DNA from: Octopus vulgaris
Lineage: Eukaryota
DNA length: 64,000 nt
Direction of reading: 5' to 3'
Assembly: GCA_951406725.2 (NCBI GenBank)
Contig: OX597814.1
Coordinates: 64,976,001-65,040,000, forward strand
This document shows, in pieces, positions 8,070 through 61,586 of this stretch (position 1 is its first letter; the number at the start of each line of letters is the position of its first letter). The notes below the pieces were generated by a model. It saw only the letters and a list, made by a program, of their open reading frames with translations, was not told the origin of the DNA and made no database searches. The position numbers and the translations under genes are program-made.

Positions 8070-9440
8070 ACATACATACATATCTATACTCATAACTGTT
8101 CATCACTAAAGATCAGGTTCTTAGACTGAATATTTTTTAGTATTGAATTTGTATAAAAAGAATAGATCCGTGGCCTGCAGCTGCGAGGATACATGTTGAG
8201 AGCTGATCAACCCCACCCCTGTGTCAACAAGAATATGCATGAGATTTATCTCGGAAATAAACGGAGCAGTTTATCTCAATTGGCAATTTTACTAGAATTT
8301 TCATGGGCGAATGGTTTACATTTACTATTATTGAATTTGCAATCAATGTGACAATGACAACTATGATGGCAACGAAGACAATACCAATGATAACGTTATC
8401 ATTATCAAAATCGGCAGTGATAATGCTGTTGATGTTCATGGTGAAGACGATGAAATCAACAGCGGTGACGACGACGACGACGACGAGAATGATGGTAATA
8501 GTGATGAGGATTTCGAGTGGGGACTAGACGAACGATAATGAAGCAAAATTAAGCACTGCTGATGACGACGAGCACTGTGATAGCTGTTGGCATTGGCGGA
8601 GGTTGCAAGAAAACAACGCTGAGAAGACAACTTTAAATCCTATGCATTAATCTTGTAAATATGAATTTAAGGGATTACATCGATTAAAAAAATAGAGAAA
8701 GGTGAGGAAGAAGAAAAAATCTCAGGATATCGGTATCACTTCTATCTTCCGTACAACTTGCTGTGCGTGTAGTAGAGAACGGTGACAGAGGTAATGGTTG
8801 TTGTTGCTGTTGTTAGTGGTGGTGGATGCAGTGGCGGTTGTGCTGGAGATGGTGGTGGATGGTGTTGGATGGCTGTAGGTGAAATGGAGTGAACGAAACG
8901 CGTTTTAACTTTGTTTCTATTCTAGATGTTTAATTCCTACCCCCACGAACCTCGACCGCCACCAACACCAACACCATTAATACCACACCAGCTTACATAC
9001 ATCTTCGTCTTTCCCCGATACCAGATATAGGCGTTTGTTTATTTGTATAGATTTATCCATCGTACTCTTGTTTATTATATAGCCGTTCGCTTACTAATAA
9101 CTTTCCTTCTTCCTCTCTCCCTCTCTCTATTTTAAGATGTTTTTTACCCACTATTTTTCAATCTTTCTTTCACAATTTACACCAAGTTTCCGACTTTTCT
9201 CACTATTTTTTTTTCGGTTTCTTTCATTCATGTTTTCAATCCGTTCATTCATTTCTTTGTTTTTCATTCATTGACTGGCAATTTAACTAATTATATCATT
9301 CCTTATCTCAAACATATTCGTTGTCCTTCCTAACCTTCATATTTATTTCATCACTGAACGAACCTGTTAATATTTTATACTAAACATGTCAACCTCTTAT
9401 TCACTCGCTTAAATATTTGTGTGATTGTGTTTATGTGTGT

Positions 9441-15799: not shown

Positions 15800-17079
15800 G
15801 TTCGGTGCTCGTATGGCAGGTGCTGGCGTAACGAAAACAGTTGAAATGTTTGGTGCATCAAGAAGTACTGTTTCGAAAGCCTTTAGGAAAGAGGGAAAAA
15901 CCTCCTCGTTGAAACAAACAGCAACAACCATTATCCCCTGTCACCGTTCTCTACCACACACACACACAGCAGGTTGTACGGAAGATAGAAGTGATACCGA
16001 TATTCTGAGATTTTTTCTTCCTCCTCAACCTTCTCTATTTTTTTAATCGATGTAATCCCTTAAATTCATATTTACAAGATTAAAGCATAGGATTTAATGT
16101 TATCTTCTCAGCGTTGCTTTCTTGCAACCTCCACCAATGCCAAGAGTACTCATCGTCCGGAAGAAAACCAAAACTTCAGATAGTGACCATCGGACTCATA
16201 CGCTAATTGTTAGAAAGGATCACAAAAGTACAGATCCCAAAATTACTGCACAGTTTAATGAGCACCTCCTGAAGTCAGTTTCAACAAAAACCGTTCACCG
16301 GGAGCTGGTCAAAGCTAGATTTCACAGGAGGGCTGCAATCAGAAAACCACTACTTTCAAAAACAAACGTTGCAAAGCGTGTAGACTAAATTAAAACCTAC
16401 AGAATTGGTCTCTAGAGCAGTGGAATAATGTTATTATTACGGACGAGTCATCCTTCACCTTATTTCCAACCACCGACCGAGTATACGTCTGGAGACAGCC
16501 AAAAGAAGCATTTAACCAAGACTGCCTTCTTCCAACTGTTAACTGGAGGGGGATCTGTGATGATCTGGAGTGGGGTGGGATATATCGTGGAAATCTGCGG
16601 CACAATAGTTTCCCTTCATCTCAGAATTAATAGTCAAGACTATTTAAGCATTTTATCTGATCAAATTCATCCTATGGTTGTGGAAGTGTTTCCGGAGGGA
16701 AAGGGAATCTTTCAGGATGATAATGCATCAATTCACACAGCTAAATTTACTACTGAATGGCACGAGGAACATTCTAATGAAGTTGAACATCTTATCTGGC
16801 CACCATAGTCCCCAGATCTCAATATTATTGAAAATTTATGGTACATTTTAGAAAAACAAGTAAAGATTCGATATCCTCCACCATCATCACTACAAGAACT
16901 GGAGACTGTTTTAGCTGAAGAATGGACAAAAATTCCTTTGGAAACAATTCAAACTTTGAACGAGTCCATATCTCGAAGAATTCAGGCTGGAATTAGTGGC
17001 AAAGGCGGTCCTACCCCGTATTAAAATTAATATTGTTTGAAATTTTAAGGTGTTTCCATTATTTTGTCCAAACCCTATA
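15800..17079 (+). mobile_element. Tc1-like transposon (DD34E), 5'-truncated pseudogene with an insertion at 15917-16157
   Basis: GARMAGAGVTKTVEMFGASRSTVSK, VSTKTVHREL, KPLLSK, VIITDES, GGSVMIW, FQDDNASIH, SPDLNIIENLW; 3' TIR-like TTTTGTCCAAACCC then TA. Confidence 0.9.
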
Positions 17080-22539: not shown

Positions 22540-24770
22540 AAATGTCGAACGAGGAAATGAGTGCTCAACATCGCATTGGTGGATATATAGTTTCTTAATT
22601 TGTGAATTAAGGTTACCATTGGTTTCATGTTAAGAAAAGTAGGAAAACATCCTAGTATCTTAGCACATGGAGAAAGGTGTTCGCTTCCATTTTGAAAAAC
22701 AGTCTCACTTCGTTTACAGCATTTCTCGTAAATTCTCGTAAATAAAAAAAATGAATCAATTAAAATTTTAGATGTTTGTCTCCCTTGGATTTGTGTTTTG
22801 GGTAGATTTTTTTGTGATTAATTTGTTTGCGTCATTTGCTTTTGTTCTGCATATGGTCTTTTGGCACTTGTAGTTTGAAGTAATTTATCATTGGGGCATA
22901 TTTCTTCTTTGTGTGAAGTTTGTACGCTATGTGTATTTTCGTTTAGGAAAGGGGCTATCCCGGTAGGTTTAACCTCGTTTATAGGAGCTCTTCTTTTAAA
23001 TATTCGAGTGTAAAATATTGCTTGTGTATGCATTCCTAATGTTGATTATATATTGATTGTATGTTATCTGTTGATGTTATGATGAAAGATGTTATCTGCT
23101 GATTATATAATGTTTAAGTTTTCAGTAATACAGTGTTCACATTTGGTACACCATCCTCTGTATGTTTTAGCTTTAGCAACATTTTTCCATTCTATCTGGG
23201 TGTTGCTTATTCCACCTTCTTTTTATTTGATAGAGAAGTCGAATCGTTTTTTTGTTTTTGTCTCTGAATGATGCAAGAAGTTGTGTATACTTTCCCTTGA
23301 ACGAGTTGCACGTCATTCCGTTATACGTCTTTGCTCTTCAGTTGGGGTCCGTGATCTTAGCCTTGTATACAAGTTCTTTCTCGAAACAGTTGGGTATTTA
23401 GAGGGCAGCGGTTTGGGGATCTGAAGTTGCATTGTCTTTCTGGGGTGTTTCTTGTGTGTTTATATTTACTTTGATTGAATATTATTGACCCTATATTGGG
23501 GAGCCAGCTATAGCTAACTTTAAGAGTATTTCTGTTGTGATATTTTTGTGAAAGTGGAAAGTGGTTGTCCATTATTTCCTAGCTACATTCATGTTATAAA
23601 GTGGGTTGAACCATACGATTATGCTATGTCTGCGTCTTCTTGGTCTATTTATATTTGGTTCAATATAGTGTATGCTATTCCTGAAGTTGGATCTTTCTAA
23701 TGGAGCATTATAATATGAGGCGGCTTTTTCGAAAGTGCCTTTGCCGACGGATAAATTGGAGACACACCTGCTAATGTTGTTAATTATATGTTTAATTACA
23801 GCTGCTGGGTGGTTGGAACCTATGTATATATACGAGGTTTCCTAGTTTTGTTTGTGGTAAGGTTTAAATTTTCCTGTGTGAAGATTCATGTTAATGTCTA
23901 CGAAGTTAACTTCTTTAAGGTTTGTATTAACTGTGGTTCTTAGGCCAAATTGGCTAAATATTTTGCATATTTTTTTCCTTATTCTATCCATATCATGTCG
24001 GTTTTTATTGTGTACTACCCCCAGGTCATCGTTCCTATGTAAACTTTCTTTTAATTCTTTTTTAAGGGCATCTAGGATTTAAAGGCCTACAATGTCAGCT
24101 ATCTCTGCTCCCCATAGCTCCTCATTGCCATGTCAAATAACTCGTCTCCATTCTTTATTACCCATTAGAAATCATCATGAAACAGTAATGACTTCCTTGC
24201 GCTCATAATTATGTTTAAATCGGTATTTGTCATAGTGACATATGTTTTACTAAATTCAAGTGCCCTCTGAAGCAAGCTTTTGGAGATCGACGGGTAGAAC
24301 TTTACGATATCGAATTGTATAAATTTGCATTTGGGTTTATCTTGTATTTTCCTAAACCATTCTATAGTTGCACTACTGCATAGCCATTGGGTAAGGTTTG
24401 AGTGCGCACTGATATGTCGTATAACATTATCTAATGTAGATTTACTAATAATTCCTATTTCACGTTTTGTGGGATTTATTAATCTACAGCACGGAATTTG
24501 CGTGAAATTGATATTATGGTATTTCAGTGTTATAAAAGGATTTCGTGGGATAAGATTTTCTACTTTGTCTTCTATTTTAAATGTTGTGGCTAGATTTTTT
24601 CATCTACATTAATTGAATTATAAGCGGTGCGATTTGTTTTCTTGTATGTTTTAGTTATGTTGTCGGTTAGTAGCTTGTTGTGTATTTGGTTGTTTACTTC
24701 GTAAATGTTTTTTGTTGAAGTTCGTAGTGTGTTTGTGTACTTCGTAAATGTTTTTTGTTTCATAACCAAC
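22540..24770 (-). mobile_element. Penelope-like element (RT plus GIY-YIG region), pseudogenised
   Basis: Minus-strand CRLINPTKREIGIISK, FIQFDIVKFYPSIS, EIADIVGL, VNFVDINMNL, SNHPAAVIK, IVWFNPLY, NRNTLKVSYS, NRCPLN. Bounded by (TA)n and (TACA)n. Confidence 0.9.
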
Positions 24771-27318: not shown

Positions 27319-28470
27319 AATGCATTCTCTGATGCTTGCACTGCCTTAGGATTGACAGTCAATCTCAAGAAAACTGTTGTCATGCATCTACCTGCCCCTG
27401 GTAAGCAGTATAGTGTACCAAATATCTATGTGTATGGTAAATGACTTGATGTAGTTGATCAGTTTCTCTACCTGGGAAACACTGTTAATAGATATAGCAA
27501 TTTGGATGATGAAATTTCAATAGAATTAGAAAAGCAAGTGTTGCTTTCGGAAGGCTAGAAAAGTGCCTCTGGAGTCGGCGAGACATATGCATAAAGACAA
27601 AGATAAAGGTGTACAAGGCATGTGTGCTCCTTTCTCTTCTCTATGCCTGCGAGACGTGGGTCAAATATCGATACCACCTTAAACAACTGGAACGTTTCCA
27701 TCAGATGTGCCTCAGACGGATCTATGGCATTAAGTGGAAGGACCGCATCAGTGATCTTGAAATAGTGGAAGGCTCTCAGTGTGAAAGTATAGAAGCTCTT
27801 GTGTTAAAGCAAAGGCTCAGATGGAGTGGTCATCTGGTCAGGATGAAGGATTCAAGGATGTCAAAACAACTCTTTTATGGAGAGTTAGCTAAAGGAGAAC
27901 GACCTCCATATAAACCAAAAAAGAGGTATAAGGACTTACTGAAGGCATCCTTAAGAAATGCTTGCATCTCTCCTGACACATGGAAAGGCATAGCTATTGA
28001 TCGTAGCAGGTGGAGAAGGATTGTGCACGAGGGGACAGCCACTTTTGAGAAATCTCGAGTTGCACATGAGAAAGTAAGGAAGGATGTCAGGAAGGGCATC
28101 GCTGTTACACTTCCAGATGGGAAGGGTTTTCCTTTGATGCTGACATGCAATGTCTGTGCAAGACACTGCCTCAGTAAAGCTGGACTCAAAAGTCATCTTC
28201 GTAGTTATAAAGCGAGACAGATGAGTGACAACCTGGCCACCGGTGGTGGTGTAACGCACCATACTAATCATATCTGTCGGGCATGTGGAAGAGAGTGTAA
28301 TTCGGCAGGAGGACTTAAACGACATGCAATGGTACATGAAGCCCAGTTACAACTACAGCCGGTTATTACCGGTAAAGTTATTAGTTGCCAATTCTGTACA
28401 AAACATTGTAGATTTTTAGCTGGGCTAAAAAGTCACATTCGATCACAGCACCAGTAACAATTAAGCTTCG
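27319..28470 (+). mobile_element. RTE (BovB-like) LINE, 5'-truncated, with three C-terminal C2H2 fingers
   Basis: GLTVNLKKTVVM, FLYLG, KASVAFGRL, VYKACVLLSLLYACETW, RLRWSGHLVRM, KQLFYGEL, KKRYKDLLK; ORF 27609-28457. Confidence 0.92.
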
Positions 28471-28475
28471 TGCAA

Positions 28476-28905
28476 TGTGGACACCCTTATTCTAGAAATA
28501 GATCCGCTATGGTCTTACCTCTAAGAAATGTTCTCAAGAAAAAATTAGCAAAACAACCAAAACTTAATCGAGCAAGACAAAAGAAAAAGCAATAAAAATA
28601 TGGATTATTCGCATACATGTTTCCCTATTAACATATTACGTGATTTTACTTACATAAATATCCGTAGATCATCGGTGCGACCGTCCAGATGAATATAATT
28701 TGTAGGACTGCATACCAGGACATTTATGTAAGTAAAATTACGTAATATGTTAATAGTGAAACATGTATGTGAATAATCCATATTTTTATTGCTTTTTCTT
28801 TTGTCTTGCTCGATTACGTTTTGGCTGTTTTGCTAATTTTTTCTTGAGAACATTTCTTAGTGGTAAGACCATAGCGGATCTATTTCTAGAATAAGGGTGT
28901 CCACA
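28476..28905. repeat. Long palindrome: 188-bp arms, 54-bp spacer
   Basis: 28476-28663 is the reverse complement of 28718-28905, with about 7 mismatches counted by eye. Confidence 0.95.
28609..28680 (-). ncRNA. Type I hammerhead ribozyme candidate (core CCGAUGA)
   Basis: TCGCA-CCGATGA-tcta..tagg-GAAA-CATG-TA-TGCGA: 5-bp stem I, long stem II, palindromic stem III. Confidence 0.7.
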
Positions 28906-29282
28906 GTTTGTGCCCAAACTACTTTCAGCTGACCAAAACGACACTCGGGTTTCAGTTGCACAAGATCTCCTTGATTGTGTCTAGAACGTGAAAATTTTCT
29001 GAAAACTTTGCTCGGGACTCTGAGAAGCTACCGCTAAGCCTTTTGAAAAATGTGATGCAGATTCTCTACCCAGCTTTCTCTGTCATGGACAATGCGACGA
29101 TCACACGCTGCACACGTTACTTCCAAGCATTGCTGTAAGTACTTGGATGTGAGTTAGAACGTTAAAACTTAGTGCGCATGCACAGCAGAGTTGAAGATCA
29201 AGCTGTGCTGAGCGGCTTCACCATGCGTGCTTTAGCTTCGTTACTATGGCAACAGTCCGGATACATATTGATCAGACCACAT
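28906..29282 (+). mobile_element. mariner remnant, internally deleted
   Basis: FVPKLLSADQNDTRVSVAQDLLDCV; TIR-like end GTCCGGATACATATTGATCAGACC. Confidence 0.65.
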
Positions 29283-61268: not shown

Positions 61269-61586
61269 TATAATCGTTTCGTTTTTGGTTTGCAAGATTA
61301 TTTATGTGAGTTCGTGTGTTGAAGCATATTCTGTTGCGTCAGGGGAGAGTTATTCTCTTTTAGTGCCTTATAATTTAACACACTCACCTGTAAAATTTCC
61401 ACTTATTTCTTTTGTATTTATTTTTTTTATATAAGAAGAAATAAGTGGCAATTTTACCGGTGAGTGTGTAAAATTATAAGGCACTAAAAGAGAATAACTC
61501 TCCCCAGACACAACAGAATATGCTTCAACACACGAACTCACATAAATAATCTTGCAAACCAAATCCCAAAACGAAACGATTCTATA
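61269..61586. repeat. Long inverted repeat (~140-bp arms, ~24-bp AT spacer)
   Basis: 61272-61411 is the reverse complement of 61436-61581 with few mismatches and one small indel. Confidence 0.93.

What the first reader, a model, noticed from the sequence alone, without database searches (positions are those of the whole stretch)
28476..28905. 430-bp palindrome hiding a complete hammerhead ribozyme across its arm-spacer junction
Seen (minus 28680-28609): stem I TCGCA/TGCGA, core CCGATGA, long stem II, GAAA, palindromic stem III ACATGT, cleavage triplet GUA (predicted cut between 28614 and 28613). The core lies in the spacer, so only one complete ribozyme exists and the other 188-bp arm is antisense to its 3' half. 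Established: Penelope-like elements carry minimal hammerheads with palindromic stem III and often leave inverted pLTRs. Inference: a non-coding Penelope-mobilised ribozyme element whose read-through RNA would either self-cleave or be locked in dsRNA.
Basis: partly seen in the sequence, partly recalled or inferred. Interest (0 to 1): 0.75.

Follow-up and report, generated by a model that had tools for sequence, protein, structure and literature searches.

The report
Penelope-type repeat stump, trapped hammerhead
This 430-base mirror repeat is a trimmed, head-to-head pair of pieces of an abundant non-coding repeat that carries a conserved hammerhead (self-cutting RNA) fold and was likely spread by Penelope-type jumping genes; in this copy the fold is predicted to be locked inside the hairpin, so it is an ordinary relic of a known pattern.

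Summary
The palindrome and the hammerhead-like motif are real, at the stated coordinates. The palindrome is not the element. It is two head-to-head pieces of a ~540-nt tandem repeat unit (family A; about 2,200 candidate places, 40 scored per search). Other copies show the Penelope-like (PLE) footprint: variable 5' truncation, partial tandems, inverted pairs, (TA)n targets and two fixed 3' ends about 110 nt apart. Two protein-coding families in this genome follow the same two-end rule, with 40- and 70-nt tails. Neither is homologous to family A, so the helper is unidentified. Four diverged sister families keep the fold: all 5 stem I pairs covary and helix III stays palindromic or nearly so. Family A departs from the textbook core (U4C, U10.1·U11.1, 45-nt helix II); the first two departures have published precedents. 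The window copy is a ~3%-diverged relic that has lost both normal ends and flanking DNA. Its core lies in the spacer only because of where the inversion joined. Read-through RNA is predicted to be locked as dsRNA by 60 kcal/mol. Cleavage and expression are not shown. This scan has found the same kind of element before, here and in other genomes.

The parts
28476..28905 (.). Whole palindrome: head-to-head pair of family A pieces, both outer ends trimmed to unit position 271/272; no target-site duplication flush with the ends
28475..28721 (-). Family A piece, unit positions 26-272 in ribozyme sense, 9 differences from the family majority in 247 nt; holds the only complete hammerhead
28718..28905 (+). 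Inverted family A piece, unit positions 84-271, 4 differences in 188 nt; holds only the 3' half of the hammerhead
28718..28721 (+). 4-nt overlap (GGAC) shared by the two pieces at the inversion junction
   Evidence: sequence
28664..28717 (.). 54-nt spacer = unit positions 30-83, with stem I 5' strand and core
28609..28680 (-). Type I hammerhead fold: stem I 5 bp, core CCGAUGA (U4C), long interrupted helix II, GAAA, palindromic helix III ACAUGU, GUA triplet, predicted cut 28614/28613
28601..28687 (-). Hammerhead with distal stem I (28687-28684 with 28604-28601) beyond an internal loop, kept in sister families
28624..28624 (-). Position 11.1: G in this copy only, U in 58 of 62 family copies
28491..28491 (.). 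Substitution at unit 256 shared with the other arm (28890) and seen in no other copy (2 of 76 rows, both from this locus); a second shared change at unit 203 (28544/28837) is in 6 of 67 rows
27513..28477 (+). Left flank: 3' part of a LINE (314-aa open frame with C2H2-like fingers; 'RTE-like' is my recalled label), lacking its last ~32 nt, which follow in 14 of 14 other copies
28906..29280 (+). Right flank: middle of an older repeat read as a mariner-like transposase (label recalled, not scanned); its upstream part, present in 14 of 14 other copies, is missing here

Best explanation
The palindrome is a trimmed head-to-head pair of pieces of an abundant non-coding ~540-nt repeat that carries a conserved type I hammerhead fold and was likely copied into the genome by a Penelope-like reverse transcriptase acting in trans, and in this copy the ribozyme is predicted to be locked in the hairpin. 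Steps: (1) Shown: family A units lie as 5'-truncated monomers, partial tandems and inverted pairs, mostly at (TA)n, ending at one of two fixed positions. (2) Inferred from Frangieh et al. 2024: those two positions are the two reverse-transcription start sites. Both target strands prime, one at each site, on RNA from one source locus, and the two cDNAs join at their truncated ends through a few matching bases, giving a head-to-head palindrome with a one-sided tail. Fold-back self-priming of one cDNA is the alternative for the junction. (3) Inferred from the literature and fold energies: in tandem transcripts two hammerheads pair through the palindromic helix III and cut after GUA, probably slowly given U4C and U·U. 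(4) Shown for this copy: both normal ends and flanking DNA on both sides are missing. Inferred: it was cut or resected as a hairpin and rejoined, at or after insertion. (5) Computed: read-through RNA forms 188 bp of dsRNA that buries the cleavage site, so this copy is a dead relic.
For: Family of ~540 nt, about 2,200 candidate places, scored copies mostly 90-98% identical. 58 of 87 pieces in 53 loci end at unit 295-298 (30) or 400-418 (28), most followed by (TA)n-type repeats. 12 of 22 other inverted pairs have one end of each type, and none has both ends at the same fixed site; 14 of 23 junctions overlap by 2-7 nt. The same two-end rule at (TA)n holds in two protein-coding families: a 727-aa family with 70-nt tail and a hammerhead, and a 781-aa GIY-YIG family with a U3-A8 hammerhead, 25 ends at one site and 9 ends 40 nt further, of 37. 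Across 10 sequences of families A-E, stem I is 100% paired with 5 of 5 pairs changed on both sides; covariation score 0.659 against 0.235 in shuffles (0 of 500) and at most 0.124 when slid. Helix III is a different perfect palindrome in each of A-D. Core positions change about half as often as non-CpG neighbours or less in A, B and D (p = 0.010, 0.017, 0.0002). Sister family C has the canonical CUGAAGA, G10.1-C11.1 and GUC and is 71% identical to A over 282 nt. In a 134-nt array of A units the double-hammerhead fold is 13 kcal/mol better than two monomers. The locked fold is favoured by 59.9 kcal/mol. The pattern is described in PMC3846280, PMC8557442 and PMC11167929.
Against: No helper identified: family A shows no significant similarity to the ends of the two coding families examined (99-357 of 500 shuffles score as high), and only those two were examined in detail. 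The window copy itself lacks the tail, the (TA)n target and a TSD, so its assignment rests on the family. Family A fails two consensus features (U4, G10.1-C11.1), only 34 of 62 copies keep core, palindrome and stem I together, and Rfam scores no hammerhead in A, B, C or D loci. In family C the core is not better conserved than its neighbours (p = 1.0). The substitution tests count related copies, including one tandem array, as independent. The double-hammerhead fold is still 11 kcal/mol above the minimum-energy fold. 10 of 22 other inverted pairs do not fit the strict end rule. Small junction overlaps are inflated by BLAST extension. Loci were the best hits to my queries, not a random sample. 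In PMC-listed work only 1 of 9 predicted retrozyme dimers cleaved in vitro.
Confidence: 0.8

Rival explanations
1. Family A is PLE-mobilised, but its hammerhead is a catalytically dead descendant of the canonical one in family C; the fold is kept only as a structure recognised by the helper protein, or by descent.
For: Two lesions together (U4C, U10.1·U11.1). U4C 'considerably decreases activity in vitro' (PMC3088659). Hammerhead cleavage was not needed for insertion by an Anolis PLE in vitro (PMC11167929).
Against: U·U is shared by A, B and D while their stems and palindromes covary. Natural active U10.1·U11.1 and viable U4C variants are reported. Core positions are under-substituted in A.
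Confidence: 0.3
2. The palindrome is a MITE or foldback DNA transposon with 188-bp terminal inverted repeats, and the hammerhead-like motif in its spacer is incidental.
For: Both outer ends stop at the same unit position and read TGT...ACA; a few other full palindromes exist.
Against: Most scored copies are not palindromes; junctions and outer ends differ in the inverted pairs; the unit runs on past both ends in other copies; no TSD; the flanks are two different truncated repeats, not one empty site.
Confidence: 0.02
3. Family A is a non-autonomous rolling-circle (Helitron/HINE-type) element; such elements also form tandems and favour microsatellites (my recall).
For: Tandem units, AT-rich targets, no TSD, no PLE homolog found.
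Against: One fixed polarity of truncation with two alternative 3' ends in ribozyme sense, and a one-sided tail in inverted pairs, match the coding PLE families of the same genome. A covarying self-cleaving RNA fold points to an RNA intermediate. Helitron termini were not tested directly.
Confidence: 0.05
4. This copy is a working regulatory element: a host transcript through it makes either a cleavable ribozyme or a long dsRNA (an editing or silencing substrate), and the layout is selected.
For: 188-bp stem with 7 mismatches; without the antisense arm the hammerhead fold is only 4.3 kcal/mol above the minimum.
Against: As few as about 12-18 nt of the antisense arm already penalise the fold by 9-18 kcal/mol. 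The arms have drifted apart like those of other copies. No second hammerhead for dimer formation within the window or 10 kb either side by family A similarity. No host gene was identified.
Confidence: 0.04

Closest known systems
Head-to-head inverted pLTR insertions of endonuclease-bearing Penelope-like elements with a one-sided tail (Arkhipova et al. 2013, PMC3846280, passages read; Craig et al. 2021, PMC8557442, passages read; Frangieh et al. 2024, PMC11167929, passages read)
   Same: Head-to-head inversion with a short overlap, variable 5' truncation, partial tandems, (TA)n targets, two alternative 3' ends, hammerhead near the end.
   Different: Family A tail is about 110 nt (30-40 nt in those papers; 40 and 70 nt in this genome's coding families). 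No ORF and no homologous helper found. The window copy has lost both normal ends symmetrically.
Animal non-LTR retrozymes (Cervera and de la Pena 2020, PMC7229834, passages read; Li, Clavereau and Pollet 2026, bioRxiv 10.64898/2026.07.22.740005, parts 1-3 of 5 read)
   Same: Non-coding tandem units, each with one type I hammerhead, present as monomers, dimers and one 134-nt array; unit length inside the reported 51-972 bp range; U·U at the base of helix II as in axolotl HHR_Amex2.
   Different: Mostly 1-1.7 units rather than long arrays in my sample; circular RNA and expression not shown; no pLTR homology to a coding PLE shown; helix II about 45 nt.
Minimal hammerheads (min-HHR) of metazoan PLEs (Cervera and de la Pena 2014, PMC4209133, parts 1-2 of 4 read)
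   Same: Type I order, 5-bp proximal helix I, very short palindromic helix III that implies dimer folding.
   Different: No G10.1-C11.1 pair in family A (present in sister family C); U4C; much longer interrupted helix II; a covarying distal stem I with an internal loop.
Natural core variants U4C and U10.1·U11.1 (Perreault et al. 2011, PMC3088659, passages read)
   Same: Each departure is on record, with reduced or retained activity.
   Different: I saw no report of both together in one ribozyme in the passages read (searches).

Membership tests
Type I hammerhead ribozyme | Core C3-U4-G5-A6-N7-G8-A9 | tested here: not met
   C at position 4 in the window copy and in 58 of 62 family A copies; U4 in sister families B, C, D. 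U4C is a published natural variant.
Type I hammerhead ribozyme | G12-A13-A14-A15.1 and U16.1-H17 | tested here: met
   GAAA and GUA at 28623-28614; invariant or kept across A-E
Type I hammerhead ribozyme | Helix I flanking core and cleavage site, with covariation | tested here: met
   5 of 5 pairs change on both sides, 100% of cells paired
Type I hammerhead ribozyme | Helix II starting with a 10.1-11.1 base pair | tested here: not met
   U·U in families A, B, D; U-G only in the window copy; G-C in family C; 30% of cells paired. Helix II itself folds in all five families.
Type I hammerhead ribozyme | Match to an Rfam hammerhead model | tested here: not met
   No hammerhead family among hits for the window or for loci of B, C, D
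Type I hammerhead ribozyme | Site-specific self-cleavage | not testable with these tools
   All runs laid were contigs, which cannot show RNA ends
Metazoan PLE min-HHR | Palindromic 15.2-16.2/loop 3 | tested here: met
   Perfect palindromes of different sequence in A-D, near-palindrome in the single E copy
Metazoan PLE min-HHR | Conserved G10.1-C11.1 with an extra nucleotide after A9 | tested here: not met
   Absent in A; G-C present in C without the extra nucleotide
PLE-type insertion | Head-to-head inverted copy next to a 5'-truncated copy | tested here: met
   Window copy and 22 other pairs
PLE-type insertion | One-sided tail between two fixed 3' ends | tested here: met
   Met for the family (12 of 22 other pairs strictly; 58 of 87 ends at the two sites); not met in the window copy, which ends at 271/272 on both sides
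PLE-type insertion | Microsatellite target bias | tested here: met
   Most family 3' ends run into (TA)n-type repeats; the window copy does not
Non-LTR retrozyme / non-autonomous PLE | Non-coding tandem units each with a type I hammerhead | tested here: met
   540-nt period in L024, L029, L036; 134-nt array in L017; longest stop-free frame inside an L036 tandem is 85 aa
Non-LTR retrozyme / non-autonomous PLE | Homology to the pLTR of a coding PLE | tested here: inconclusive
   None to the 727-aa or 781-aa families; other PLE families in the genome were not covered
Non-LTR retrozyme / non-autonomous PLE | Accumulation of circular monomer RNA | not testable with these tools
   No run on record as RNA; contigs only
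MITE / foldback DNA transposon | Fixed termini and target-site duplication | tested here: not met
Helitron/HINE | Helitron-type terminal motifs and insertion site | not tested
   Judged only indirectly from the end pattern

The most novel reading that the evidence does not exclude
Families A-E define a lineage of long-armed type I hammerheads that standard descriptors and Rfam miss. They carry a ~45-nt helix II and matching C-R-G/UAA internal loops in helices I and II, and the core itself is controlled by the helix II loop: where family A changed U4 to C, the loop changed CAG to CGG, keeping a 3-bp pairing with C3-N4-G5. That would be a conserved off-switch released on dimer formation. Family A's helix III (ACAUGU) is the same as in the 781-aa coding family, so parasite and helper RNAs could pair as a mixed double hammerhead.
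Probability: 0.1. Interest if true: 0.6.

Novelty: new member of a known kind. Interest (0 to 1): 0.27.

Why it matters
As a single locus it matters little: it is a dead, trimmed copy of a described pattern, and 237 of 453 notes in this genome already mention hammerheads. The family set is a modest resource. Five related hammerheads differ at U4 and 10.1-11.1 while keeping their stems, a natural series for asking whether PLE-associated hammerheads are kept for cutting or for recognition, which is open in the papers read. It also shows that long-helix-II variants escape Rfam and short-spacer descriptors.

Tried and rejected
Rfam: no hammerhead hit. Helper search: a PLE-like fragment of the window led to a 727-aa family and Pfam GIY-YIG to a 781-aa family; neither end region is homologous to family A. 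A shared 9-mer in the tails of A and the 727-aa family was not taken as evidence. A Pfam family I asked for is not in the library. Expression: no RNA holder listed. Four runs guessed to be RNA hold short contigs of the unit, with patchy cover and no piece spanning it; this shows nothing about expression, ends or circles. Empty site: four DNA-type runs from four organism labels show the family and the normal continuations of both flanks, but no listed joint from 28477 to 28906 and no listed piece across the junctions; the tables were cut, so this is inconclusive. The missing LINE end and missing upstream mariner-like part were not found within 10 kb of the window. The core-to-helix-II-loop pairing proposed by RNAalifold has probability below 0.08 in every family as a monomer and rests on one evolutionary event, so it is kept only as the novel case. 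The dimer energy script failed for the 540-nt tandems, so only the 134-nt array was computed. MITE reading rejected. Host gene and transcription direction were not determined. Supplements were not read; those of PMC4209133 and PMC8557442, and repeat libraries not held here, may already list these families.

Full report
1. Observation. The inverted repeat is the longest in the window: arms 28476-28663 and 28718-28905, 96% complementary, 54-nt spacer, 7 mismatches. A strict descriptor matched 2 of 5000 shuffles of the palindrome and 0 of 5000 of the family unit; a relaxed one matched 82 and 58 of 5000. Rfam reports no hammerhead.

2. The element is larger than the palindrome. The window lies at G000:C1:64976001-65040000 in a 2.8-Gb genome ('octopus' is my guess from repeat content and from earlier AI notes, not a tool label). 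Searches gave 2205 and 2232 first-look candidates, of which 40 were scored each time; these are not copy numbers. From 60 loci, 7 dropped as duplicates, the unit is 540 nt and occurs as 5'-truncated monomers and partial tandems. The window holds unit 26-272 on the minus strand and unit 84-271 on the plus strand, head to head, overlapping by 4 nt. The longest stop-free frame inside a tandem copy is 85 aa. The family is also present in runs from four organism labels.

3. Insertion footprint. Of 87 pieces in 53 loci, 30 end at unit 295-298 and 28 at 400-418, most running into (TA)n-type repeats. Of 22 other inverted pairs, 12 have exactly one end of each kind and none has both ends at the same fixed site; the other 10 have shortened or internal ends. 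14 of 23 junctions overlap by 2-7 nt, although BLAST inflates small overlaps. The loci are best hits, not a random sample. Two coding families in the same genome behave alike. A 727-aa family (no Pfam hit; PLE identity and 'Nematis-like' label from my recall of motifs plus its architecture) forms 3.4-kb tandems, carries a hammerhead, and ends at two sites 70 nt apart, one at each end of inverted pairs. A 781-aa GIY-YIG family ('Neptune-like' recalled) has a U3-A8 hammerhead and ends at two sites 40 nt apart, 25 and 9 of 37 ends. This is the pLTR-and-tail pattern of PMC3846280 and PMC8557442 (passages). PMC11167929 shows in vitro that the tail lies between two reverse-transcription start sites and that both target strands are cut and extended (passages). 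Family A is not detectably homologous to either coding family, so the helper is inferred, not identified.

4. The hammerhead fold is conserved. Flanks of fetched loci yielded sister families B, C, D and a single copy E; C is 71% identical to A over 282 nt, and B, C and D each gave about 1,900-2,900 candidates. On a 10-sequence alignment (the window copy plus 9 copies selected for intact motifs), all 5 stem I pairs change on both sides and stay paired, a distal stem I is 90% paired, and the covariation score is 0.659 against 0.235 in shuffles and at most 0.124 when slid. Related sequences can beat shuffles without structure, so the slid control and the five distinct stem I sequences carry the weight. 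Helix II was left out of that count because the aligner misplaces it by one column; it folds with a 3-4-bp base, an internal loop and a long distal stem in each family. Helix III is a different palindrome in each of A-D. Core positions are substituted less than non-CpG neighbours in A (15/619 against 179/3874, p = 0.010), B (p = 0.017) and D (p = 0.0002) but not C (p = 1.0); copies are not independent. Family A departs from the consensus twice: C4 in 58 of 62 copies and U10.1·U11.1 in 58 of 62. The G at 11.1 that closes helix II in the window is private. Family C is canonical at both. U4C and U·U each have precedents (PMC3088659 and PMC7229834, passages). 34 of 62 A copies keep core, palindrome and stem I together.

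5. This copy. It differs from the family majority at 9 of 247 and 4 of 188 positions. Both arms share two changes, one of them found in no other copy, so they derive from one source or were homogenised later; 8 of 13 inverted pairs checked share non-majority changes. Both ends stop at unit 271/272, short of either normal end. The left flank is a LINE lacking its last ~32 nt (14 of 14 other copies continue) and the right flank starts in the middle of a mariner-like repeat (14 of 14 others continue upstream), so the flanks are not one empty site, there is no flush TSD, and the lost parts are not within 10 kb. I infer that the hairpin was cut or resected across its base and rejoined, at or after insertion; this is not shown.

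6. How it would work. In a tandem transcript, two units can pair through ACAUGU. For the 134-nt array in L017 the double hammerhead is computed at -43.3 kcal/mol against -30.0 for two monomers and -54.6 for the minimum fold. Dimer dependence and weak activity are what PMC4209133 reports for PLE hammerheads (parts 1-2 of 4), and only 1 of 9 predicted retrozyme dimers cleaved in the 2026 preprint (parts 1-3 of 5). In the window, a minus-strand read-through makes the antisense arm first and folds into the hairpin (-297.2 against -237.3 kcal/mol; stem I probability 0). A transcript starting in the spacer would be within 4.3 kcal/mol of the hammerhead fold but needs a partner in trans. A plus-strand transcript has no core in sense. 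Cleavage, expression and circles are untested.

7. Comparison and verdict. It works like a non-LTR retrozyme, that is a non-autonomous PLE passenger, and this copy is a head-to-head stump. Family A is not a strict member of the consensus hammerhead or min-HHR class (U4 and 10.1-11.1 not met) but is a covarying variant whose sister family is canonical. I found no paper on these families in five searches; supplements and repeat libraries were not seen. Earlier notes of this scan describe the same kind of element in this genome and others; they are unchecked AI notes and agree with, but do not support, this reading. New member of a known kind; interest 0.27.

Noticed in passing
window 61277-61570: A second palindrome (135-nt arms, 94%, 24-nt spacer), 76-78% similar to a palindromic stretch in L047:890-1169; no hammerhead by my descriptor. 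Probably another head-to-head stump.
   Followed up: partly
window 8584-8770 and 15960-16146: Inverted pair of 187 nt, 94% identical, 7.2 kb apart; no match in the loci fetched.
   Followed up: partly
window ~23575-24599 (minus): Broken reverse-transcriptase fragment related (52%) to the young 727-aa family; used as the query.
   Followed up: partly
L017:489-1498 (G000:C6:127091554-127092563): Head-to-tail array of seven 134-nt pieces of family A (unit 23-157), each spanning the hammerhead, 98% identical: the best natural dimer substrate.
   Followed up: partly
Alignment A1 columns 16-18 with 28-30: Core position 4 covaries with the helix II internal loop (CUG with CAG in B-D, CCG with CGG in A; E has CUG with CGG); pairing probability below 0.08 in monomers.
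   Followed up: partly
L151:5175-5205; L161:359-450: The hammerhead of the 727-aa coding family has A·A and family E has A·C at 10.1·11.1, so a mismatch at the base of helix II recurs in this genome.
   Followed up: no
L008, L030, L032, L060, L068, L114, L219, L223, L224, L237: Further, sequence-distinct type I hammerheads with long helix II and palindromic helix III turned up by chance in 3-kb flanks; some lie in tandems (L060, L114, L224).
   Followed up: no
L222-L257: The 781-aa coding family has a U3-A8 core and the same helix III palindrome (ACAUGU) as family A, and appears to have a second frame upstream of the main ORF.
   Followed up: partly
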